Part shown: piece after piece, positions 24,357 through 36,796 of the stretch | Layout: each line of letters starts with the position of its first letter | Numbering within the stretch: position 1 is the first letter of the stretch | Origin: a virus | Lineage: Duplodnaviria > Heunggongvirae > Uroviricota > Caudoviricetes | Strand: one strand, 5' to 3' | IMG/VR virus record: IMGVR_UViG_2537562172_000001 | Span: 1 to 36,796 of that record | DNA length: 36,796 nt | Notes under the pieces: model-generated | The model's database searches: none | Seen by the model: the letters and a program-made list of their open reading frames with translations, nothing else | Told to the model about the DNA's origin: nothing | Position numbers and translations under genes: made by a program

Positions 24357-24374
24357 TGGGGCTGTCCTTTTTTA
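24345..24374. terminator. Bidirectional terminator hairpin between convergent Q and the orphan gene
   Basis: Stem acagcccc / ggggctgt with 5-nt loop; T-run CCTTTTTT downstream on the plus strand and an A6 run upstream (T-run on the minus strand). Confidence 0.55.
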
Positions 24375-24896
24375 CCAGAGTTGAACCATTTTCTGGGTGC
24401 CGTCAGGCTTGAGATTATCAATTTCAGAGAGAACGTAATATTGAATGGCTTCACAAACGGTGGTGTATGGTGAATTACCTTCTTTAAGTGGCACGATATT
24501 ATTATTAACGCGAGCCTGTATTTCATCGTTATACATTGCGATCGAAAGAGGAGTATGCACGAAGGCGACTTCGCCAGGTGTGTCGTCAACCACTGTCTCA
24601 ATGCTGAAAATCAGTTTTCGCTCATCATTGCCGCCCCTTGCTTTGGGGGTAGCGGCAGGAATCTGAGATAAAGGCATTCTGCGAAACCCTTCAGCCGTTT
24701 CCAGTCCGCATGAAACGTAATGCTGGCGATTACCGTCGCTATCCGTCCATGTCTGTGATGGCAGCTCCAGAGAGATTTCATAAGCATCAACAATTCCCTG
24801 GGCAATGCGTACAAGCGGGGTCAGGTCTTCATTGCGGCGAAAACTCTCCTTTACCTGATCTCGTTTTTCTCGTAACTGCTTGTAATTAATGACCAT
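24372..24896 (-). CDS. Orphan hypothetical protein (about 174 aa) between portal gene and the expected cos region
   Basis: ORF 24372..24935. Likely start is the ATG at 24896 (MVINYKQLREK...), preceded by GGAGG at 8 nt. No family recognised. Confidence 0.6.
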   Translation of the reverse strand: MVINYKQLREKRDQVKESFRRNEDLTPLVRIAQGIVDAYEISLELPSQTWTDSDGNRQHYVSCGLETAEGFRRMPLSQIPAATPKARGGNDERKLIFSIETVVDDTPGEVAFVHTPLSIAMYNDEIQARVNNNIVPLKEGNSPYTTVCEAIQYYVLSEIDNLKPDGTQKMVQLW

Positions 24897-25507
24897 AGAA
24901 CAGCCTCCATTGATTTCTTTGCTCGTATTTTGCACTTATGAAGTGTGGTCGGCAAGGTGCCGCATCACTGACGCGCTTCGCTTGTCTGCTGCTTCGCCGG
25001 GGCATAAAAAATTTATGCCCCGACTCTCCAGCTCCTGTATCAATCAGATAATTTCACGACGTCTTCCGACTTATCGCTATCATCGACGGCCAGACTCTTA
25101 CACAATCCCGCCGCGCTGACTGCATGTTCTCGCCGCCTCAGTGCGATTTTGACGGCCTTACCTTTCATCCCATCAAATCAGAACACCTTACGTCTTTTTC
25201 ACGCTCAGCGTGAGCGATACAGCCATTCTGTTGTGTCGCTGCGACATCGTTCAGGGAATGCTATTTACCCCCTGAAACGCGGGCTGTTCCCCCGTCACCT
25301 GCGCGCAGAAAAAACGCGTTTTTTGTGCACGTACGGATCCTTGATGGATCCAGCTGCCATGCGGGCCTGAAGGGTAAAAAGTCGTTCAAAAAAATTGTGC
25401 AAATTTGTGCACAATCTTGCATTAAAATCAACGTTCAGTGGATGTATTTAAGCGAAAAAAAAGATCTTTGTATAATTTCGTTCGGTTACGTTGGTGAGAG
25501 GTTCTGA

Positions 25508-25909
25508 GTGAAAGACATCACATATTGGAATGATAAAATTCAGAAACAAATTGATAGTTATCCTGAAGCTGTTCGAGAAAGGATAAATTTTGAGCTTGTT
25601 GCACTGCAGAGCGATTGTCCTCATTCTTTCGACAGTTTCGATTTTCCAGTGGATGGTGATGATGCCTTGGGGGTTCCACCTGCTCAAAAAAAATCAATGC
25701 GGGAAACGATTGGTCGCTACGCAATGCAATTAACCATCAAGAGTAGTGATTCTTATCGTATGATTTACGTTGCGAAATTTGCGGAGTCTGTTTACATACT
25801 TCATACATTTAAGAAAAAGACAAATGGTGTGTCAAAAAAAGAATATGAGACAGCTGCCGCAAGATACAAACAATTAGTGGAGTATCGTCGTAAAAATGGC
25901 TTAAGATAG
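25508..25909 (+). CDS. RelE/ParE-superfamily toxin, Gp49/HigB-like
   Basis: C-terminal region YRMIYVAKFAESVYILHTFKKKTNGVSKKEYETAAARYKQ fits the Gp49-like (HigB) pattern. GTG start. Immediately followed by an XRE HTH gene. Confidence 0.65.
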   Translation: MKDITYWNDKIQKQIDSYPEAVRERINFELVALQSDCPHSFDSFDFPVDGDDALGVPPAQKKSMRETIGRYAMQLTIKSSDSYRMIYVAKFAESVYILHTFKKKTNGVSKKEYETAAARYKQLVEYRRKNGLR

Positions 25910-25979
25910 CTTGCAGGTATCTCAAATCTGATATAACATAATCAATGTCAGCAACATCGCTGATTAAGGCTGGAGAGTT

Positions 25980-26297
25980 ATGGAATTCGTCGTAGTCAAA
26001 AACCCTTATGCGTCATCAAGTAGCTCTGTAAATGAAGCTAGTGATAAACACATCCGGGCCCAATTAATGGTTATTATCCGAAAAATGATTCAGGAGCGCG
26101 GTCTTACCCAGCGAGAAGCTGCTGAATTGCTGGAAACAACCCAACCAAGAGTAAGCGAAATCATTAATGGTAAGTTAGATAATCATACCATTGATCGACT
26201 GTTTATCATGCTAAACATCCTGGGGTGGGATTTTAAGTTTGGGTATTCCGGTGGGGTTGTTACTGCGACGGCAGAACATTCCTGTCAGGTTGCATAA
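25980..26297 (+). CDS. XRE-family HTH antitoxin (HigA-like)
   Basis: Helix-turn-helix segment LTQREAAELLETTQPRVSEIINGK, 105 aa, directly downstream of the toxin-like gene and followed by a terminator. Confidence 0.65.
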   Translation: MEFVVVKNPYASSSSSVNEASDKHIRAQLMVIIRKMIQERGLTQREAAELLETTQPRVSEIINGKLDNHTIDRLFIMLNILGWDFKFGYSGGVVTATAEHSCQVA

Positions 26298-26462: not shown

Positions 26463-26612
26463 ATGGCTTTGAAATCAATTGTAAAAAAACCGGCTCCGAA
26501 AGGATTTCGTTGGCAGTTTTGCCGATACCGTAAGGTTCGTGGTGATTCTGGTCGAAAGCTGGATGCTCATGAGTATGGCTGGAAAGCTTGGGCGTTTCTA
26601 GTGCGAAGCTGA
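26463..26612 (+). CDS. Small basic hypothetical protein (49 aa), not in ORF track
   Basis: AGGAGG about 8 nt upstream of the ATG at 26463. Translation MALKSIVKKPAPKGFRWQFCRYRKVRGDSGRKLDAHEYGWKAWAFLVRS. Followed by a terminator hairpin. Confidence 0.4.
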   Translation: MALKSIVKKPAPKGFRWQFCRYRKVRGDSGRKLDAHEYGWKAWAFLVRS

Positions 26613-26623
26613 TATTTGATATT

Positions 26624-26652
26624 TAAAAGCATGGCGAAAGCCATGCTTTTTG
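26624..26652. terminator. Bidirectional terminator between the small ORF and parR-like gene
   Basis: Stem aaagcatggc / gccatgcttt with GAAA loop, followed by TTT; A-run upstream. Confidence 0.6.
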
Positions 26653-26655
26653 TGA

Positions 26656-26970
26656 TCATTCAGGAAAAAATTCCTGAATATTCTTTTTTATTTGACTTAT
26701 ATTCTGATTTTTGCAACCAACAGGCTCGCTGTTATGCCAGCCCCATATGTGATTGTTGGCAGGCATATTTTCCCCCTCTGACCATTCAGCCAGCCAGTAA
26801 GCAAAGGCAGGATCGTTTTTAATGAGTGCCAGTCCAGCCAGAAATGCCGCGCGTTGCGCGCGGCTGCGTTCGGAGGCTGGCAGGCTGTCGAGATAATTAC
26901 ACGCTTCCCGTTCACTCTTGACTGCAGCTGGCTTCAGATAGAAACTTATCCGTCTGGTTGGTGTCGTCAT
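26656..26970 (-). CDS. parR: ParR-like centromere-binding adaptor (ribbon-helix-helix)
   Basis: From the Met at 26970: MTTPTRRISFYLKPAAVKSEREACNYLDSLPASERSRAQRAAFLAGLALIKNDP resembles R1 ParR (..FKLNPDVNQTDKIVCDTLDSIPQGERSRLNRAALTAGLALYRQDP, recalled from memory). AAGGAG SD; start lies 4 nt after the parM stop. Confidence 0.7.
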   Translation of the reverse strand: MTTPTRRISFYLKPAAVKSEREACNYLDSLPASERSRAQRAAFLAGLALIKNDPAFAYWLAEWSEGENMPANNHIWGWHNSEPVGCKNQNISQIKKNIQEFFPE

Positions 26971-26974
26971 TGGT

Positions 26975-27934
26975 TTACTCCTTGTCCATTGCGTACAGCC
27001 CATTAACCAGAGCAAACTGTGGCACCCCGTCCGCGATGAAAGTCGCATTAACTCCGCAGGCTTCGCGGATAGCGGGTGCCACAATCTCCGCCCCGCCACC
27101 GACAACCATCACCCGCCCGTAACCCGAAAAACCCGCCAGCGCGCGGATCACGCGTTGTTTCAGTGTTTCTTCCTTTTCACGAATAACCGCCATCAGGCTG
27201 GCGTAATGCGCGTCATTGTGGATGTGCTGGCGCAGCCAGGCTTCATCATGGCGATGTTCGATAATGGTATTGGCGATGTGGTGACTGGTGCGCATACCGT
27301 TAGTGGCCATCACCGACAGTACGGCATCGGCCATCAGAGAAACGCCTACGTGTGGATCGCAAAACACCTGGCTGATACCTGCCAGTTGTCCCTGAACCTT
27401 TGCCACATCCAGCGTGGTTCCGCCTAAATCCACAATCAGCAGGGATTCAAACGGACTCATGTCAGCCAGTGCTTTAAAGCCAGCCGGAATGGATTCAGGC
27501 ATAACCCGTACGTTACGGATAGTGAATGCTTCGCCGTTCTGGTACTCCACCGGGCGCATGACGTTCGCTTTTTTGCGGTTGATGTTGGCCATGTCCGGCT
27601 GTGCGTTTGTGTCGAAATACTCGCTCAGTGGCAGGGTGACAACCACATCCACTTCCTGTGGTGTGATGCCTGATTTGACCAGCGCGTGATGAATGGCGAT
27701 TACATTCACATCGCTGTACTGGTATTGCGTGTCAGTCGTCTGGACAAAGCGATCGCTGACCGGATCAAAGCCATAGCGCACGCCATCAAGCATGTAGTTC
27801 GCGGGATGCGTGCCACCGAACGGCGCAGACCATTCCGACTTGAAGCTGTTCGGGCTGATGGCGTTGCGGCGTTCGCCGTTCTCAGTCCATGCCAGCTTGA
27901 TGTTGGTGGAGCCGTCGTCGATACAAATTTTCAT
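26975..27934 (-). CDS. parM: ParM/StbA-like actin-fold ATPase (type II plasmid partition NTPase)
   Basis: 319 aa. MKICIDDGSTNIKLAW (phosphate-1 motif), SPNSFK, YQYSDVNV..HHAL, TLPLSEY, RKKANV, VMPESIPAG and LIVDLGGTTLDV (phosphate-2 motif) align along the whole length with R1 ParM as recalled. Confidence 0.85.
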   Translation of the reverse strand: MKICIDDGSTNIKLAWTENGERRNAISPNSFKSEWSAPFGGTHPANYMLDGVRYGFDPVSDRFVQTTDTQYQYSDVNVIAIHHALVKSGITPQEVDVVVTLPLSEYFDTNAQPDMANINRKKANVMRPVEYQNGEAFTIRNVRVMPESIPAGFKALADMSPFESLLIVDLGGTTLDVAKVQGQLAGISQVFCDPHVGVSLMADAVLSVMATNGMRTSHHIANTIIEHRHDEAWLRQHIHNDAHYASLMAVIREKEETLKQRVIRALAGFSGYGRVMVVGGGAEIVAPAIREACGVNATFIADGVPQFALVNGLYAMDKE

Positions 27935-27963
27935 GTCGCTTTTCCTTATGTTGATTAATTAAT

Positions 27964-28077
27964 CGTTTACAGGATTCTGAAATCCCGCTCTTGCCTGTTT
28001 TGTGCGCGCTTCATATATCGCGGCACGTTTTTTGCTCATTTACGGGATTTGTGAATCCCGTTTCTGTCTGTTTTTTG
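27964..28077. repeat. parC-like centromere/operator candidate: two ~40-bp direct repeats, each containing an inverted repeat
   Basis: Copy 1 cgtttacaggattctgaaatcccgctcttgcctgttttgtg and copy 2 catttacgggatttgtgaatcccgtttctgtctgttttttg lie upstream of parM. Copy 2 sits within the last codons of gene A. Confidence 0.45.
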
Positions 28078-30833
28078 TTTCCACTGGTCAGGCTACCCCG
28101 CAGCAGGTCTGCTTTGCGGCGGGCGCGTTCAGTTGTTTCACTGATTCTCTGTGCGTGCTCTGCGTCGCGGATGGCGCGTAGCATGTCAGAAAGTACGGTA
28201 ACGGGTGTTTTCATGGTGTTCTGGTCTTGCTGAAGTGTGGATGCCAGGCGTGCGGCGGCTTCAGGGGCTGATGCCCCTAGTTGTTCCAGATAGCTGGCGA
28301 CCGGGTTATGGCGGATCTCCGTGCTGCTTACGCCGTGATTACGACTCAGGCGTTGCCAGAGCTGCGTGATTCGGCTGTCCGGGCGGGTATCCGGTTTGCG
28401 TACAATTTCAAATCCCTGCGGTGCAATGATGCTGCCGTCAACGTACAGGCTGCCGCCCCGTAACAGGTGCTGCATCTGCTGTTCACCGATATGCAGGCCG
28501 AGAGATTCAGCAGACTCCCGCCATTCTTTAGCGAGTAACTCGTGGTTATCAGGCAAAGGCCGTGGCTGTTTGCGGCTCTGTGTCCAGTTCTGCATTTCAT
28601 CACTGCTGTTTTTTGCCTGTTTGTCACGAAGCGAACGCATCAGCGCCCGGCGTTCGTGCCGTTTCAGTGAGCGCATCCATTCGTTCACTTCAACGCCGTC
28701 AGGGAGCTGCGGCCACGGTGCTGGCCGTTCTTTCGGCTGTTCTGTCCCGTTGTTGTCCGTTTCCTGTACACGGGGACAGTTATTGCCACGAGTCCAAGGG
28801 GCGGCAGGGCCGCCCTGAAGGTCAAAACCATTTTCACGGGCGCTGTCTTCCGCTTCCGGTTTACGTCTTACCAGCTTCCAGTTATCCGGGTGCGTGCACA
28901 CGCGGGAAGACTCCCCAATGAGCGGCGACCAGATCCCGTAAATCTGTACGCTCTGTTCGCCGTAATCGTTCAGCTCATCTGCGAGGTCGTAGGCGGTGCG
29001 AATCAGGTAGTCTTTGCGTGGAACAAGTACGCCGCCCTGTTTCTCAATGTAGGTGGCAAAACATCCGGCATCAGCGGCAGCAAGAACCGCGTCCATTGCG
29101 TCATCCTTCAGCCGTTGCGGGCCTTCCGGGTTGCGTGCCATCTGGCTGGCAAGGCGGCGGAGTTCACGCCACACCTGACGGGAGGGGATACCAAAGAACT
29201 GGAACTGGCGGACACGGTGAAGGCGCGCCCAGCCGATGGCGCGTTCCACGCTCTCGGCCATTGATTTTCCGGTTTCGTGGTCAACGCGTGGCTTGCCCGT
29301 TTTCGGGTCGATGCCATCCACGGCGCGGCTGTCCAGGTTTTTTCCGATGTAGGTGGCGATGTAGCTGGTTGGCGTGCCTTTTGAGCCGTCGACGTACTCC
29401 GCCTTAAAACGCGGAGTAATATCATCGCCCAGCTCGTGACGATCTTCCTGAATGGCAATATCGCGGGTGTGGGACACAATGGTGTCGATTTCTTCCGGAT
29501 GTGCAAAGACCATCATATGCCAGTGCACGGTGCCGTCATGGTGAGGCTCCACCGTGCGGATGCCATACCAGCGCAGGCCGTCGCGGTTCAGTTTTTTGCG
29601 GACCGCCGCAAAAAACGTGTTAACCAGGTAATCGCTGGAGTCGCGCATGGTGGCCCCGTTCCATTTGGGATTCGGATGACCGTTCTCTGTTGTGGCGTGG
29701 TATTTTGACGGGCAGGTGACAGTCAGAAACACCGCTTTGTCGCCACGGGCTTCGGCCAGAAGTTCCAGCCCTTTCATGGTAGCCATCATTTCTGCCTTAC
29801 GGTGAACCGGGTTACTTACTCCCGCGTAATACACCGTCTCGAGATCAATCGTGAACCCGTCTTCGTTTTCCAGCATGAAACTTTTCAGGAAATCGCGTGT
29901 TTTCTCGCGCTGTGCGCGAAACTCGCTTAACGCGTCCTGGCTCAGATAGGGCGATGTTTTTCTGGAAACCAGACAGGCGGCGCGGAGTTGTTCTTCTCTC
30001 CACTCGCAACGTAACAGCCACAGTTTGCGTTTCCACCATTCTGCACAGGTCAGGCGAAGGATTGCGCCCGGCAGCAGCTCCGTGTCCGGTTCGTTCCTCC
30101 GGTCTTTGTCTGTTGTCAGTGCGTCATAATGTGGAGGCATGGCGTGCAGGTGTAACGCCATGCGGGCCAGCATCTGATACGCCTTCAGGGTTACATCCAT
30201 GGTCAGCTCGCCATCGGTCGAGCCAAAGCCATCGCAGAGTTTTTCGAAGGTGCTGCTGAACATCGCCGCCGTCATGGTGGCCAGCGTCTGTATCTGGTGT
30301 TTGTTGAGCTGCGGCAGGTAAAGCAAATCGTCCAGGCGTTCGCGTCCGGCAAGGGAGCGATAACCCGGTGTCAGCCAGCGGTGATCGGTGCGCTCCAGAC
30401 GTTCGAATATTTTGCGCAGGGTCCCACGCGCATAGCGTTCTGCCTGCCTGGCGTTTTTTCCTTTCTGACGATCGGCTTCCTGTTTTTTGCGCAGGAAGGA
30501 GAGGTGGCGAATAAGCGGATCTCGCAGATAGGACGGCAGCAGGCGCAGCGAGGCCATGGCTTCATCCACCGCGCCGCGTGCCTGTTTTCTGGCGTCTCCT
30601 GCCAGTGTGATGGTTTTGTCCTGTTTTTCCTGTGCGTCCAGGCTTTTATTAATCAGGTTGCCCAGCGGCGTGGCGGAGAACGCCGCATCAGCCATTTCCT
30701 GGCGGCGCTCGTTCTCTACCCGGTAGGCATCCAGCCAGGAGGAAAGCGCGGATTCAGGAGCGGGGATCCCCGTTCCTTCACGCCCCACTGCGTGGCGCGG
30801 TTGTTGCCAGTCCCTGATGTACTCCGTTGACAT
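28011..30833 (-). CDS. A: Replication gene A protein (rolling-circle replication initiator endonuclease)
   Basis: Contains VFLTVTCPSKYH, RTVEPHHDGTVHWHMMVF and YIATYIGKNLD, paralleling P2 gpA motifs (ITLTAPSKYH, VVEPHHDGTPHWHMMLF, YIAKYISKNIDG). 940 aa from the first Met; start uncertain. Confidence 0.9.
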   Translation of the reverse strand: MSTEYIRDWQQPRHAVGREGTGIPAPESALSSWLDAYRVENERRQEMADAAFSATPLGNLINKSLDAQEKQDKTITLAGDARKQARGAVDEAMASLRLLPSYLRDPLIRHLSFLRKKQEADRQKGKNARQAERYARGTLRKIFERLERTDHRWLTPGYRSLAGRERLDDLLYLPQLNKHQIQTLATMTAAMFSSTFEKLCDGFGSTDGELTMDVTLKAYQMLARMALHLHAMPPHYDALTTDKDRRNEPDTELLPGAILRLTCAEWWKRKLWLLRCEWREEQLRAACLVSRKTSPYLSQDALSEFRAQREKTRDFLKSFMLENEDGFTIDLETVYYAGVSNPVHRKAEMMATMKGLELLAEARGDKAVFLTVTCPSKYHATTENGHPNPKWNGATMRDSSDYLVNTFFAAVRKKLNRDGLRWYGIRTVEPHHDGTVHWHMMVFAHPEEIDTIVSHTRDIAIQEDRHELGDDITPRFKAEYVDGSKGTPTSYIATYIGKNLDSRAVDGIDPKTGKPRVDHETGKSMAESVERAIGWARLHRVRQFQFFGIPSRQVWRELRRLASQMARNPEGPQRLKDDAMDAVLAAADAGCFATYIEKQGGVLVPRKDYLIRTAYDLADELNDYGEQSVQIYGIWSPLIGESSRVCTHPDNWKLVRRKPEAEDSARENGFDLQGGPAAPWTRGNNCPRVQETDNNGTEQPKERPAPWPQLPDGVEVNEWMRSLKRHERRALMRSLRDKQAKNSSDEMQNWTQSRKQPRPLPDNHELLAKEWRESAESLGLHIGEQQMQHLLRGGSLYVDGSIIAPQGFEIVRKPDTRPDSRITQLWQRLSRNHGVSSTEIRHNPVASYLEQLGASAPEAAARLASTLQQDQNTMKTPVTVLSDMLRAIRDAEHAQRISETTERARRKADLLRGSLTSGNKKQTETGFTNPVNEQKTCRDI

Positions 30834-31872: not shown

Positions 31873-32703
31873 TTACTTCACGGGAACGAACGGAACAGCG
31901 GTGTTACTGGTCATGTATTGCGGCAGCGTGCCGTTCCATTTGTTGATCGCTTCCAGCTCCATAACGCCGGGATTCTGGCGCAGAGCTTCACCGCGTAAAC
32001 GAATGGCGTCGGCTTCAGCCTGGGCTTTTGTGCGAATGGCATCAGCCTGTCCGGCAGCTTCTGCGCGCAACATGTTGGCTTCTGCTTCGCGTTGCTTGAC
32101 TTCCTGTTCGCGTTGCAGGGTTTTCTGGTTTGCCGTGACTTTGGCGTTAATGCTGTCGATAACGGTTGGCGGATATTCCGGTTTACCGACATAAGAGAGG
32201 CTCATGACCTGAATGCCGATGGGGGTCATCTCTTCCTGAATATCTTTAAGTGCTGAATCCAGCAGTTCAGACTTACCACCGTCGATAAACTTATCGGTGG
32301 TCATTTTGCTGGCCAGTCGGTTGAGTGCATCGGCAATCTTCTGGCGCAGGTCAGTGTCGGTAATGTCATCCACGCCTTTGCGGTAGGTCTGAAACACTGT
32401 GGTAACTTTGGATGGATCAACCTTGTAAGCCACGCCGATGTGATAGCCGATGGTTGTGCCGTCACTCATCTGAAAGCTGAACGGCTCATCGTAGGTCTTC
32501 ATTTGTTTGAAGGTCGGGAAGATGTAAACCTCGGTATTCCAGCCAGTCCAGTAGCGGCCAACGCCAACCACTTCGCCAACGCCTTTGTCGTCGCCCAGCT
32601 TGTTGACTTTGATGCCCACATTACCTGGCTCAACGCGATCGCAACCAACCAGCAGGATGGCGGCAAAAAGCGGGATAATCTGAAAGAGTCTGAATTTCTT
32701 CAT
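31873..32703 (-). CDS. SPFH/band-7 (stomatin/prohibitin/flotillin-like) domain lipoprotein
   Basis: 276 aa. N-terminus MKKFRLFQIIPLFAAILLVGC has a lipobox (LVGC). Followed by a band-7-like core and a C-terminal Ala/Glu/Arg/Gln-rich coiled-coil segment (REQEVKQREAEANMLRAEAAGQADAIRTKAQAEADAIRLRGEA). Confidence 0.8.
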   Translation of the reverse strand: MKKFRLFQIIPLFAAILLVGCDRVEPGNVGIKVNKLGDDKGVGEVVGVGRYWTGWNTEVYIFPTFKQMKTYDEPFSFQMSDGTTIGYHIGVAYKVDPSKVTTVFQTYRKGVDDITDTDLRQKIADALNRLASKMTTDKFIDGGKSELLDSALKDIQEEMTPIGIQVMSLSYVGKPEYPPTVIDSINAKVTANQKTLQREQEVKQREAEANMLRAEAAGQADAIRTKAQAEADAIRLRGEALRQNPGVMELEAINKWNGTLPQYMTSNTAVPFVPVK

Positions 32704-35734: not shown

Positions 35735-35800
35735 CGGTTCACCAGGCATTTATTTCCCAGAGCTGTGATCAAGATGATGTTTTCATTGGAGGGCTTCCTT

Positions 35801-36796
35801 ATGTCGATTAAGAAGCTCGCTAATGGCAAATTTTGTGTGGACGTGCGGCCTGCTGGATCAGAAGGAAAGAGATTCAGGCGGCGATTTGATACTCGTGGTG
35901 AGGCTGTTTTGTATGAGCGTCATGTATTGCAGCATTACCACGACAAAGACTGGGTTGATAAGCCAACAGAACGGCGGTCGCTGAAGGAGCTGCTGGATTG
36001 TTGGTGGTTGTATCACGGTAAAAATCATCCTTACGGTGCGATGGAGCGAGTGCGTATTGCTGCGGTCATTAGTGATCTTGAAAGTATTAATGTTACACGC
36101 AGTGATCAACTTACTCGTAAAAACATAATTAATTATCGGTTATTGTTGCTTAACCGCGGAATAAAACAATCCACGGTTAATCGTTATTGCGCAATGATGA
36201 GTGGTTTTTTCACAAAACTAATTGACGCAGAGGAATATTCTGGGGCTAATCCGTTTCATGATGTAAAAAAACTTAATATCAAACAGCCTGAAATGGCTTA
36301 TTTGTATCATGAAGATATTCCACGATTACTGGAGTTGTTATCTGGTGATGAATTAAAAGCCGTCTTGTTGTGTCTGGCAACAGGTGGAAGATGGAGTGAA
36401 GTTGCAAATATCAAGGGGGAGCATGTTATTAGCGGCAAAGTCATTTTTATGGAAACAAAAAATGGGAAGCGTCGCGTTATACCTATATCGTCAGAACTGG
36501 AGTGCATGATTAAGACTAAGGCTACTGGTCGTTTAATTTATCCGAGTTATGCCGCTGTCAGAACGGCTATCAGAAAGGTGAGGCCCGATCTTCCTGAAGG
36601 GCAGTCGATACATGTTTTACGGCATACCTTTGCCACTCACTTCATGATTAATGGCGGGAATATCATCACTTTGCAGAGAATACTTGGGCATAGCACTATT
36701 CAGCAGACGATGACTTATGCCCATTTTGCACCGGATTATCTGCAGGATGCTGTGCGCTTTAATCCTGTGGCTGAGTTGTCCAGATATTGCCCATAA
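35801..36796 (+). CDS. int: Tyrosine integrase
   Basis: ORF 35765..36796; likely start is the ATG at 35801 after GGAGGG. Catalytic-domain motifs HVLRHTFATH and LGHSTIQQTMTYAH. Directly downstream of C as in P2. Confidence 0.9.
   Translation: MSIKKLANGKFCVDVRPAGSEGKRFRRRFDTRGEAVLYERHVLQHYHDKDWVDKPTERRSLKELLDCWWLYHGKNHPYGAMERVRIAAVISDLESINVTRSDQLTRKNIINYRLLLLNRGIKQSTVNRYCAMMSGFFTKLIDAEEYSGANPFHDVKKLNIKQPEMAYLYHEDIPRLLELLSGDELKAVLLCLATGGRWSEVANIKGEHVISGKVIFMETKNGKRRVIPISSELECMIKTKATGRLIYPSYAAVRTAIRKVRPDLPEGQSIHVLRHTFATHFMINGGNIITLQRILGHSTIQQTMTYAHFAPDYLQDAVRFNPVAELSRYCP

What the first reader, a model, noticed from the sequence alone, without database searches (positions are those of the whole stretch)
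26656..28077. Complete ParM/ParR/parC-like type II partition cassette directly downstream of replication gene A
A 319-aa actin-fold ATPase with both phosphate-binding motifs (IDDGSTNIK and DLGGTTLD) is followed, 4 nt after its stop, by a small RHH-like protein whose N-terminal half resembles R1 ParR. Two ~40-bp direct repeats with internal inverted repeats lie upstream, as a parC-like site would. This is the gene order of plasmid ParMRC loci, not of P2-like phages. It occupies the position of orf91/tin/old, a known cargo hotspot in P2. Possible roles: segregation of an episomal phage-plasmid form, positioning of replicating phage DNA, or exclusion of incoming elements.
Basis: partly seen in the sequence, partly recalled or inferred. 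Interest (0 to 1): 0.8.

Follow-up and report, generated by a model that had tools for sequence, protein, structure and literature searches.

The report
ParMRC partition cassette in P2-like prophage
An integrating P2-like prophage carries an intact actin-type (ParM/ParR/parC) DNA-segregation module next to its replication gene; the module is real and under selection, but it is already annotated and discussed in the literature, is present in about a quarter of complete E. coli genomes, and its function has not been tested.

Summary
On the minus strand, gpA (28011-30833) is followed after 76 nt by a 319-aa ParM (26975-27934; 47% identical to R1/R100 ParM). Four nt later comes a 104-aa ParR (26656-26970; Pfam Plasmid_stab_B, E = 9.5e-26), then a terminator.

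The upstream repeats are real. Each contains an 18-bp CGGGA-N8-TCCCG box, 73 bp apart. The same two-box layout sits upstream of parM in P2-like prophages of Plesiomonas and Hafnia.

parM is under strong purifying selection (pN/pS 0.055). ParR keeps its DNA-binding N-terminus and a C-terminal KKN..FFP motif shared with R1 ParR; its linker varies freely.

It is not new. The cassette occurs in phage P88, phiSM and 1324 of 5426 complete E. coli genomes, with PGAP and PHROG annotation. Rousset 2022 and Pfeifer 2021 already noted it and proposed plasmid-like maintenance.

1468 of 1470 E. coli copies are chromosomal, and the element has an integrase and a rolling-circle initiator. I therefore favour action on transient extrachromosomal circles (as SrpMRC does in ICE R391, or AlpAC in prophage CGP3) over a permanent plasmid prophage. 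No experiment supports any of these roles.

The parts
28011..30833 (-). Replication initiator gpA (940 aa). It is the upstream neighbour, and its last ~22 codons contain the distal ParR box.
   Evidence: Pfam Phage_GPA, E = 2.2e-131. Annotated 'replication endonuclease' in relatives.
28036..28077 (-). Distal 42-nt repeat unit, inside the gpA coding sequence.
   Evidence: Direct-repeat family D1, 74% identity, spacing 73.
28043..28060 (.). Distal candidate ParR box CGGGATTCACAAATCCCG (sense strand), starting 126 nt upstream of the parM ATG.
   Evidence: Perfect match to the palindrome pattern. The outer GGGA/TCCC positions are conserved and the centre varies across 55 distinct upstream variants. 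A GGG-N10-CCC match lies at -131 in Plesiomonas and -128 in Hafnia.
27963..28004 (-). Proximal 42-nt repeat unit, in the 76-nt gpA-parM spacer.
   Evidence: It resembles a duplicated gpA 3' end; locus L079 carries a single-copy variant produced by a 73-bp deletion.
27970..27987 (.). Proximal candidate ParR box CGGGATTTCAGAATCCTG (sense strand), starting 53 nt upstream of the ATG. Most relatives have ...TCCCG.
   Evidence: The equivalent box lies at -59 in Plesiomonas and -55 in Hafnia.
27952..27963 (-). ATTAATTAATCA, a candidate -10 element of a parM promoter (inferred).
   Evidence: ATTAAT.AA is one of only three conserved islands in the E. coli/Plesiomonas/Hafnia upstream alignment. The strict sigma-70 scan did not call it.
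26975..27934 (-). parM, actin-like ATPase, 319 aa. AAGGA Shine-Dalgarno at 27943-27947.
   Evidence: pN/pS = 0.055 across 82 loci.
26656..26970 (-). parR, 104 aa. N-terminal DNA-binding domain (invariant RRISFYLKP), variable linker at about residues 65-89, and a C-terminal KKNIQEFFPE motif.
   Evidence: Per-domain pN/pS: 0.15-0.20 (N-terminal domain), 0.69-0.78 (linker), 0.14-0.26 (C-terminus).
26625..26650 (.). Bidirectional intrinsic terminator hairpin, 6 nt after the parR stop. It ends the gpA-parM-parR transcription unit.
   Evidence: 11-bp stem followed by a U-run on both strands; z = -5.1 and -4.0.

Best explanation
This is a functional type II (ParMRC, actin-type) DNA segregation cassette. 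It belongs to a phage-associated subclade of R1-type systems and forms the last two genes of the early/replication transcription unit of an integrative P2-like (P88-like, Xuanwuvirus) prophage.

Shown by sequence:
- ParM retains all nucleotide-binding and catalytic motifs.
- ParR retains the DNA-binding N-terminus and the C-terminal motif that, in R1 ParR, docks onto ParM.
- Two conserved 18-bp boxes (CGGGA-N8-TCCCG, 73 bp apart, about 7 helical turns) lie just upstream of parM, next to a conserved ATTAAT.

Inferred mechanism: ParR dimers occupy the two boxes on circular phage DNA and probably also repress a promoter there. Their C-terminal helices capture the ends of ATP-ParM filaments. Filament growth between two ParR-parC complexes pushes sister circles apart.

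Inferred role: the element has a tyrosine integrase and a rolling-circle initiator, and it is chromosomal in more than 99% of complete genomes. I therefore propose that the cassette acts when the phage genome is a free, gpA-replicated circle, that is, after infection before integration or after excision. It would distribute copies to both daughter cells and so reduce loss of the element. This is what SrpMRC does for ICE R391. Identity as a ParMRC cassette: about 0.95. This specific role: about 0.45 (the confidence value given for this explanation refers to the specific role).
For: - Protein identity.
- Selection: parM pN/pS is 0.055, and ParR is constrained exactly at its DNA-binding and ParM-binding ends (alignments).
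- cis-sites. The two-box layout recurs at the same positions in Plesiomonas and Hafnia, whose ParM is only 62-63% identical.
- Conserved context: gpA...parM-parR...portal in five genera. The ParMs from phage context form one clade of 16 representatives that excludes plasmid and ICE ParMs.
- Operon structure: no terminator between gpA and parM, and a strong terminator after parR.
- Integrated state: 1468 chromosomal versus 2 plasmid places. An integrase is present and the prophage lies beside yecA.
- A circular replicating form exists for a ParMR-bearing relative. The O157 P2-like remnant keeps int, the early genes, gpA and parMR. Its Sakai counterpart Sp13 excises spontaneously, and its circles increase about 30-fold on mitomycin C (PMC2669165).
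- Functional precedent: SrpMRC plus a toxin-antitoxin system stabilise the excised, rolling-circle-replicating ICE R391 (PMC4489591). This window also carries a RelE/HigB-like toxin-antitoxin pair next to the cassette.
Against: - There is no experimental data for this cassette in any P2-like phage (literature searches).
- Only two ParR boxes are visible. R1 parC has ten 11-bp iterons, so the boxes could be a mere operator.
- E. coli-clade ParR lacks a ~12-residue segment found in R1 ParR and in the ParR of the other genera.
- In an intact inducible phage, excision normally ends in lysis, so the benefit of segregating circles is unclear.
- No consensus sigma-70 promoter was detected, so the timing of expression is unknown.
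Confidence: 0.45

Rival explanations
1. Organiser of lytic replication, like AlpAC of prophage CGP3. ParMR are made with gpA from the early promoter. ParM filaments position or disperse the replicating circles and raise replication and packaging efficiency. Inheritance by daughter cells is irrelevant in this model.
For: - parMR sit directly behind gpA with no terminator between them.
- AlpA/AlpC are early-induced, bind their own upstream region and are needed for efficient CGP3 replication (PMC4446434).
- The cassette is conserved in fully functional phages such as P88 and phiSM.
- From background knowledge (not tested here): P2 packages monomeric circles, so circle separation could matter.
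Against: - ParM here is a close R1-type segregation protein (47% identity), not an AlpC relative.
- The O157 remnant, which can no longer make virions, still keeps intact parMR.
- There are no data on burst size.
Confidence: 0.25
2. Stable plasmid prophage (phage-plasmid). The cassette lets the phage persist long-term as a low-copy episome instead of, or alternating with, integration. Rousset 2022 and Pfeifer 2021 suggested this.
For: - A partition cassette sits next to a toxin-antitoxin pair.
- One 34,461-bp circular 'plasmid' record, NZ_CP148288.1, is an entire ParMR-bearing P2-like genome.
- Published suggestions.
- A P2-like plasmid prophage does exist (KS14).
Against: - 1468 of 1470 and 1645 of 1647 E. 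coli places are chromosomal.
- In PLSDB, only one phage-sized circle carries the whole element. Most other hits are large replicons of 228 kb to 1.4 Mb with an inserted prophage, and one is a 26.8-kb Shigella record with a partial match.
- The circular record is 100% identical over the 4.8-kb gpA-parMR query to a chromosomally integrated copy in another strain.
- The element keeps a tyrosine integrase and has only the rolling-circle initiator gpA. KS14 instead has RepB plus ParA and no gpA.
Confidence: 0.12
3. Interference device. A prophage-borne ParR/parC (or ParM) destabilises incoming plasmids or competing P2-like elements that use related partition systems, through partition incompatibility.
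For: - The locus borders a known anti-phage and cargo hotspot.
- ParR is unusually diverse: 46 variants among 81 loci whose ParM is at least 99% identical.
- Genomes can hold up to 3-4 copies of the cassette.
Against: - Neither protein matches any PADLOC family.
- The DNA-reading strand RRISFYLKP is invariant, and box variants do not track ParR type.
- The variable part of ParR is a linker evolving near neutrality.
- ParM is only ~47-53% identical to plasmid ParMs, so cross-talk is unlikely.
Confidence: 0.06
4. The repeats are not a centromere. They are a duplicated gpA 3' end, or hairpins acting as terminators of antisense transcription, and serve at most as a ParR operator. The cassette is then a hitch-hiking plasmid module of no use to the phage.
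For: - The proximal repeat would encode a gpA-like C-terminus, and a single-copy variant exists.
- The distal hairpin is flagged as terminator-like on the + strand.
- There are only two sites.
Against: - The palindrome centres vary without compensation while the outer GGGA/TCCC positions are fixed, which fits a protein-binding site rather than a hairpin.
- The Plesiomonas boxes have only 3-4 bp arms around a 10-nt centre, yet keep the same length and the same 72-bp spacing.
- In Hafnia the boxes lie inside a different gene, so they travel with parM and not with gpA.
- Strong purifying selection and conservation across five genera argue against a useless passenger.
Confidence: 0.07

Closest known systems
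ParMRC (StbA/StbB/parC) of plasmids R1 and R100
   Same: - Gene order parC-parM-parR, with parR starting a few nt after parM.
- ParM is 47% identical over its full length, with all nucleotide-binding motifs.
- The ParR N-terminus is 44% identical, and the C-terminal K-K-N-x-x-x-hydrophobic motif is shared.
- The half-site ACAAATCCC resembles the A/C-rich R100 iterons such as AAACAAAACCC.
   Different: - The host replicon is an integrating rolling-circle phage, not a theta-replicating low-copy plasmid.
- The candidate centromere is two 18-bp palindromic boxes 73 bp apart, both upstream of the putative -10. R1/R100 has about ten 11-bp direct iterons flanking the promoter.
- ParR is 104 aa rather than 116-117 aa and lacks a ~12-residue segment.
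- The ParM belongs to a separate phage-context clade.
The same cassette in phage P88 / Xuanwuvirus, Citrobacter phage phiSM and E. coli O157 prophage Sp13
   Same: Essentially identical: 94-97% nucleotide identity over gpA-parM and the 5' end of parR. Already annotated as ParM plus 'plasmid partitioning/stability family protein'.
   Different: The 3' half of parR and the cargo downstream differ between elements. In many relatives homology to this window stops inside parR, at window position 26775 or 26903.
SrpMRC of SXT/R391 integrative conjugative elements (PMC4489591)
   Same: A type II partition system on an element that normally lives integrated but has a transient circular form replicated by a rolling-circle mechanism. 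In R391 it works alongside a toxin-antitoxin system, and it was shown to reduce loss of the element.
   Different: SrpM and SrpR are only distantly related to ParM and ParR of R1. The carrier is a conjugative element, not a phage. Function has been demonstrated for Srp and not for this cassette.
AlpC/AlpA of Corynebacterium prophage CGP3 (PMC4446434)
   Same: A prophage-encoded actin-like filament with a co-transcribed adaptor that binds the operon's own upstream region. It is expressed early after induction and acts on circular phage DNA.
   Different: A different actin-like family and a different adaptor fold, in a Gram-positive host. Its demonstrated role is replication efficiency, not segregation.
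Burkholderia phage KS14, a P2-like plasmid prophage (PMC3091744)
   Same: A P2-like virion module combined with a partition function.
   Different: KS14 has RepB plus a ParA (type I) system, a serine recombinase and no gpA, and it is isolated as a plasmid. The element here has gpA, a tyrosine integrase and ParMR, and it is found integrated.

Membership tests
ParM (type II partition actin-like ATPase) | Full-length match to both ParM domains above the curated cut-offs | tested here: met
   StbA_N scores 274.5 bits (cut-off 24.6) and the ParM C-terminal domain 230.5 bits (cut-off 27.4). phrog_691 'partition protein', E = 3e-90.
ParM (type II partition actin-like ATPase) | Actin-fold nucleotide-binding and catalytic residues: phosphate-1 DDGSTN, the residue equivalent to E148, phosphate-2 D170-LGGTT, and adenosine motif GGGA (R1 numbering) | tested here: met
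   All are conserved in the pairwise alignment with R100/R1 ParM, as D6-D7, E147, D169 and GGGAE.
ParM (type II partition actin-like ATPase) | ATP-dependent, dynamically unstable filaments stabilised by ParR-parC | not testable with these tools
   Requires purified protein or live-cell imaging.
ParR (PF10784, RHH centromere-binding adaptor) | Family match, and encoded immediately downstream of parM | tested here: met
   Plasmid_stab_B scores 89.9 bits (cut-off 25). The start codon is 4 nt after the parM stop. The N-terminus is 44% identical to R100 ParR.
ParR (PF10784, RHH centromere-binding adaptor) | Ribbon-helix-helix fold of the N-terminal domain | tested here: inconclusive
   The AlphaFold2 monomer model has low confidence (pLDDT 57). 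It shows helices at 20-29, 32-52 and 54-62 and no strand, as expected for an RHH protein modelled without its dimer partner. The sequence match to the pB171 ParR structure 2jd3 has E = 0.0035.
ParR (PF10784, RHH centromere-binding adaptor) | C-terminal ParM-interacting helix | tested here: met
   The motif (K/R)(K/Q/N/G)N(A/I)xx(L/F)(F/I)P aligns with R100 ParR ...TKKNAMKLIN, and N97 is invariant. It is conserved across 40 E. coli variants, with pN/pS 0.14-0.26 against 0.7-0.8 in the linker. Physical binding was not tested.
parC centromere | Repeated sites directly upstream of parM, conserved together with the system | tested here: met
   Two boxes lie at -126 and -53. The layout is the same in Plesiomonas (-131/-59) and Hafnia (-128/-55). 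The Serratia/Enterobacter clade has a different paired-repeat layout that accompanies a divergent ParR.
parC centromere | R1-type organisation: two blocks of five 11-bp direct iterons flanking the promoter | tested here: not met
   R100 parC read compared with the two palindromic boxes here.
parC centromere | Specific ParR binding, and cis-acting stabilisation or incompatibility | not testable with these tools
   Requires EMSA or footprinting and plasmid-loss assays.
Phage-plasmid (P1, N15, SSU5 or KS14 type) | The prophage resides as an extrachromosomal replicon | tested here: not met
   1468 chromosomal versus 2 plasmid places in 5426 complete E. coli genomes. One phage-sized circular record in PLSDB. 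The closest match is integrated beside yecA.
Phage-plasmid (P1, N15, SSU5 or KS14 type) | A plasmid-type replication initiator | tested here: not met
   Only the rolling-circle initiator gpA (PF05840) was found. No Rep gene appears in the annotated relatives.
P2-like (Peduoviridae) prophage | gpA, Cox, tyrosine integrase, and P2-family portal, terminase, capsid and tail genes in P2 order | tested here: met
   94-97% nucleotide identity to P88/Xuanwuvirus.

The most novel reading that the evidence does not exclude
In integrative P2-like phages the ParMRC module is not a plasmid-maintenance device. It would be a phage-adapted actin spindle with a minimal two-box centromere, acting on gpA-generated circles during infection or induction. 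That would make it the first actin-like DNA-positioning system shown for a temperate phage of Gram-negative bacteria. It would also explain why a quarter of E. coli genomes carry an apparently 'plasmid' function inside a chromosomal prophage.
Probability: 0.35. Interest if true: 0.6.

Novelty: already known. Interest (0 to 1): 0.28.

Why it matters
About 24% of complete E. coli genomes, including O157:H7, carry this conserved and strongly selected actin-type partition module inside an integrated prophage, and nobody has shown what it does. If it segregates or positions free phage circles, that would add a cytoskeletal step to the life cycle of a classic model phage family. It would also further blur the line between prophages, ICEs and plasmids.

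As a scan hit, however, it adds nothing that annotation pipelines and two published surveys have not already flagged. The details added here are:
- the two-box parC layout conserved across genera;
- the three-part selection pattern along ParR;
- a ParM clade specific to P2-like phage contexts;
- the 1468:2 ratio of integrated to episomal copies.

Tried and rejected
1. Compensatory changes in the palindrome arms. I first read the T>C / A>G variant pair as compensatory. Explicit indexing showed that one change lies in the centre, so there is no compensation. The pattern is a fixed outer GGGA/TCCC with a free centre.

2. Co-variation between the two ParR N-domain types and the box-centre variants. 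None was found.

3. The capsid gene as a denominator for all P2-like prophages. Megablast recovered only the same lineage (1104 genomes), so it is not a usable control.

4. Whether the strain carrying the 34-kb circle also has an integrated copy. That assembly did not appear among the listed best E. coli genome hits. Only an integrated copy, 100% identical over the 4.8-kb query, was found in a different strain.

5. Sigma-70 consensus scan. No promoter was called between gpA and parM. The ATTAAT proposal rests on cross-genus conservation only.

6. AlphaFold2 model of ParR. Confidence was low (pLDDT 57), so I ran no fold search.

7. NCBIfam. The only ParM model that appeared, the PRK13917 equivalog, scored far below its cut-off (19 vs 417 bits), and ParR had no hit.

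8. PADLOC. Neither ParM nor ParR matched a defence family.

9. Literature searches for function or expression of this cassette. They returned only annotation-level mentions and the two speculative sentences.
Full report
**What is in the sequence**

All features are on the minus strand.
- The 940-aa replication initiator gpA (28011-30833; Pfam Phage_GPA, E = 2e-131) is followed after 76 nt by a 319-aa ORF (26975-27934).
- Four nucleotides after that ORF's stop, a 104-aa ORF begins (26656-26970).
- Six nucleotides after the second stop lies an 11-bp-stem hairpin with U-runs on both strands (26625-26650; z = -5.1 and -4.0). No terminator separates gpA from the first ORF.
- So gpA, parM and parR form one transcription unit that ends at a bidirectional terminator.

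**The proteins**

The 319-aa protein is ParM.
- Pfam StbA_N scores 3.4e-82 and the ParM C-terminal domain 1.3e-68.
- phmmer against PDB sequences gives E = 1.6e-92 to R1 ParM.
- BLASTP shows 47% identity to R100/R1 ParM over 318 residues. Phosphate-1 (IDDGSTNIK, residues 5-13), E147, phosphate-2 (D169-LGGTTLD) and the GGGAE adenosine motif are all conserved.

The 104-aa protein is a ParR.
- Pfam Plasmid_stab_B scores 9.5e-26.
- Its N-terminus is 44% identical to R100 ParR over 62 residues.
- Its match to the pB171 ParR structure 2jd3 has E = 0.0035.
- An AlphaFold2 monomer model has low confidence (pLDDT 57). It places helices at 20-29, 32-52 and 54-62, a disordered stretch at 63-89, and a C-terminal helix at 90-101.

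**The candidate parC**

- Each contains an 18-bp palindromic box, CGGGATTCACAAATCCCG (distal) and CGGGATTTCAGAATCCTG (proximal). With at most 1 mismatch, these are the only two such sites in the 36.8-kb window.
- The distal box is inside the last ~22 codons of gpA. The proximal repeat looks like a duplicated gpA 3' end. Locus L079 has lost exactly one 73-bp unit and still encodes a similar gpA C-terminus.
- Across 55 distinct upstream sequences from 82 loci, the outer GGGA/TCCC positions are fixed and the central 8 bp vary without compensation. This fits a protein-binding site rather than an RNA hairpin.

The strongest evidence is comparative.
- In P2-like prophages of Plesiomonas (ParM 63% identical) and Hafnia (62%), GGG-N10-CCC boxes lie at -131/-59 and -128/-55 from the parM start. 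In this window the equivalent matches lie at -125 and -52. Background frequency is 0.1-0.5 per kb.
- In Hafnia both boxes lie inside a different upstream gene, so they travel with parM and not with gpA.
- A three-genus alignment conserves only the two boxes and an ATTAAT.AA element between the proximal box and the ribosome-binding site. I propose that element as the -10 of a ParR-controlled promoter. This is an inference; the consensus scan did not call it.
- The Serratia/Enterobacter clade (ParM 54-58% identical, ParR beginning NRKISFYLKPAHSRAD) instead has 14-20-nt inverted arms 26-28 nt apart. The site layout therefore changes together with ParR.
- R100 parC is an array of A/C-rich 11-bp direct iterons. 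The R1-type layout is not met, although the half-site ACAAATCCC resembles those iterons.

**Selection**

I analysed the window together with 81 loci whose ParM is at least 99% identical to it; most come from IMG/VR viral contigs.
- parM has pN/pS = 0.055.
- ParR has 46 distinct sequences.
- ParR pN/pS is 0.15-0.20 for residues 1-64, 0.69-0.78 for the linker (65-89), and 0.14-0.26 for the last ~15 residues.
- The strand RRISFYLKP is invariant in 40 E. coli variants.
- The C-terminal motif (K/R)(K/Q/N/G)N(A/I)xx(L/F)(F/I)P aligns with ...TKKNAMKLIN of R100 ParR. That R1 ParR's C-terminus docks onto ParM is from my own knowledge of the ParM-ParR peptide complex (PDB 4A62), not a tool result; 4a62 did appear among the ParM hits.
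- This three-part pattern is what a working centromere-to-filament adaptor should show.

**Is it new?**

No.
- Megablast finds the cassette at 94-97% identity in phages P88 (Xuanwuvirus), phiSM, 503458, 520873 and others.
- It is present in 1324 of 5426 complete E. coli genomes, annotated by PGAP as 'plasmid segregation protein ParM' and 'plasmid partitioning/stability family protein'.
- PHROGs has families for both proteins.
- Rousset et al. [quoted passage not shown]
- Pfeifer et al. 2021 flagged P88 as possibly having 'episomal and integrative states' (PMC7969092).
- The arrangement gpA...parM-parR...portal also occurs in Plesiomonas, Hafnia, Serratia and Enterobacter.
- In a neighbour-joining tree, all ParMs from verified phage contexts fall in one clade of 16 representatives (at least 54% identity). 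That clade excludes R100 ParM, a Dickeya ICE copy and two plasmid-type copies. The tree has no bootstrap, and context was checked for only part of the clade.

**What it most likely does**

The window is an integrative P2-like prophage with a tyrosine integrase at 35765-36796 and Cox. Its closest relative sits beside yecA in the chromosome.

Evidence against a permanent plasmid prophage:
- Of 1470 E. coli places, 1468 are chromosomal.
- PLSDB holds one phage-sized circular record carrying the whole element (NZ_CP148288.1, 34,461 bp). Over a 4.8-kb gpA-parMR query it is 100% identical to an integrated copy in another strain.
- KS14, a genuine plasmid-borne P2-like phage, has RepB and ParA and lacks gpA.

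Evidence that free replicating circles of such elements exist:
- The O157 P2-like remnant keeps int, the early genes, gpA and parMR but has lost its head and lysis genes.
- Its Sakai counterpart Sp13 excises spontaneously, and its circles rise about 30-fold on mitomycin C (PMC2669165).

Two experimentally studied systems show what an actin-type module can do for an integrated element:
- SrpMRC, together with a toxin-antitoxin system, reduces loss of the excised, rolling-circle-replicating ICE R391 (PMC4489591).
- AlpAC of prophage CGP3 is needed for efficient replication after induction (PMC4446434).

I therefore favour action on transient circles. My estimates are about 0.45 for segregational stabilisation, about 0.25 for organising lytic replication, about 0.12 for a stable plasmid state, and small weights for interference and for a functionless passenger. 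None of these roles has been tested for this cassette.

**Verdict**

The claim that it is foreign to P2-like phages is wrong. The finding is already known at the level of annotation and hypothesis. The remaining interest lies in the untested function.

Noticed in passing
window 25508-26297 (+): A toxin-antitoxin-like pair in the cargo region next to the partition cassette. It consists of a Gp49/RelE-HigB-like toxin (PF05973, E = 3e-13) and an HTH_37 antitoxin-like protein (E = 8e-19). RefSeq annotates the toxin as a RelE/ParE family toxin in the closest relative. ICE R391 has a similar pairing of a toxin-antitoxin system with a type II partition system.
   Followed up: partly
window 26656-26903 (parR 3' part); loci L003-L082: Homology to many relatives stops inside parR, at window position 26775 or 26903. 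There are 46 distinct ParR sequences among 81 loci whose ParM is at least 99% identical. Synonymous divergence rises towards the 3' end of parR (pS 0.12, 0.19, 0.28 in one allele group and 0.28, 0.57, 0.69 in the other). This suggests that the recombination boundary of the cargo hotspot lies within the gene.
   Followed up: partly
window 28011-29320 (gpA C-terminal part); locus L079: gpA is 940 aa, with about 440 residues beyond the Phage_GPA domain (which covers residues 179-503) and of unknown function. Its last ~22 codons are duplicated as the proximal repeat. One relative (L079) has a 73-bp deletion that leaves a single box and a gpA ending ...TGFKNPVTD.
   Followed up: partly
window 26463-26612 (+): An unannotated 49-aa basic ORF (MALKSIVKKPAPKGFRWQFCRYRKVRG...) with a strong AGGAGG ribosome-binding site. 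It lies between the antitoxin gene and the bidirectional terminator. It has no Pfam match.
   Followed up: partly
window 24372-24935 (-): A 187-aa ORF beside the portal gene, in the region where P2-like phages have their cos site. It matches phrog_5091 (unknown function, E = 4e-65) and has no Pfam or PADLOC hit. It is another cargo gene of the gpA-gpQ hotspot.
   Followed up: no
window 31873-32703 (-): An SPFH/Band-7 domain protein (PF01145, E = 6e-31) encoded within the early region of the prophage.
   Followed up: no
L002 (NZ_CP148288.1, 34,461 bp, circular): A complete ParMR-bearing P2-like genome, including its integrase, deposited as a plasmid of a cat E. coli isolate. Over a 4.8-kb gpA-parMR query, a 100% identical copy is chromosomally integrated in strain Z1323HEC0067. 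I could not determine whether the circle is a true episome or an induced replicative form.
   Followed up: partly
L093 (E. coli O157:H7 chromosome, locus 5500-26400): A degraded P2-like prophage corresponding to Sakai Sp13. An IS element sits immediately after parR, and the head, packaging and lysis genes are gone. int, the early genes, gpA, parM and parR remain intact in many O157:H7 genomes.
   Followed up: partly
L086 5887-5940; L087 5883-5950; L094 about 1220-1290: P2-like prophages of the Serratia/Enterobacter clade carry a different putative parC: 14-20-nt inverted arms (GGGAACnAnATAGAAAAAT) 26-28 nt apart, followed by a GCCGTTTAAACGGC-type palindrome. Their ParR is longer (133-134 aa).
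   Followed up: partly
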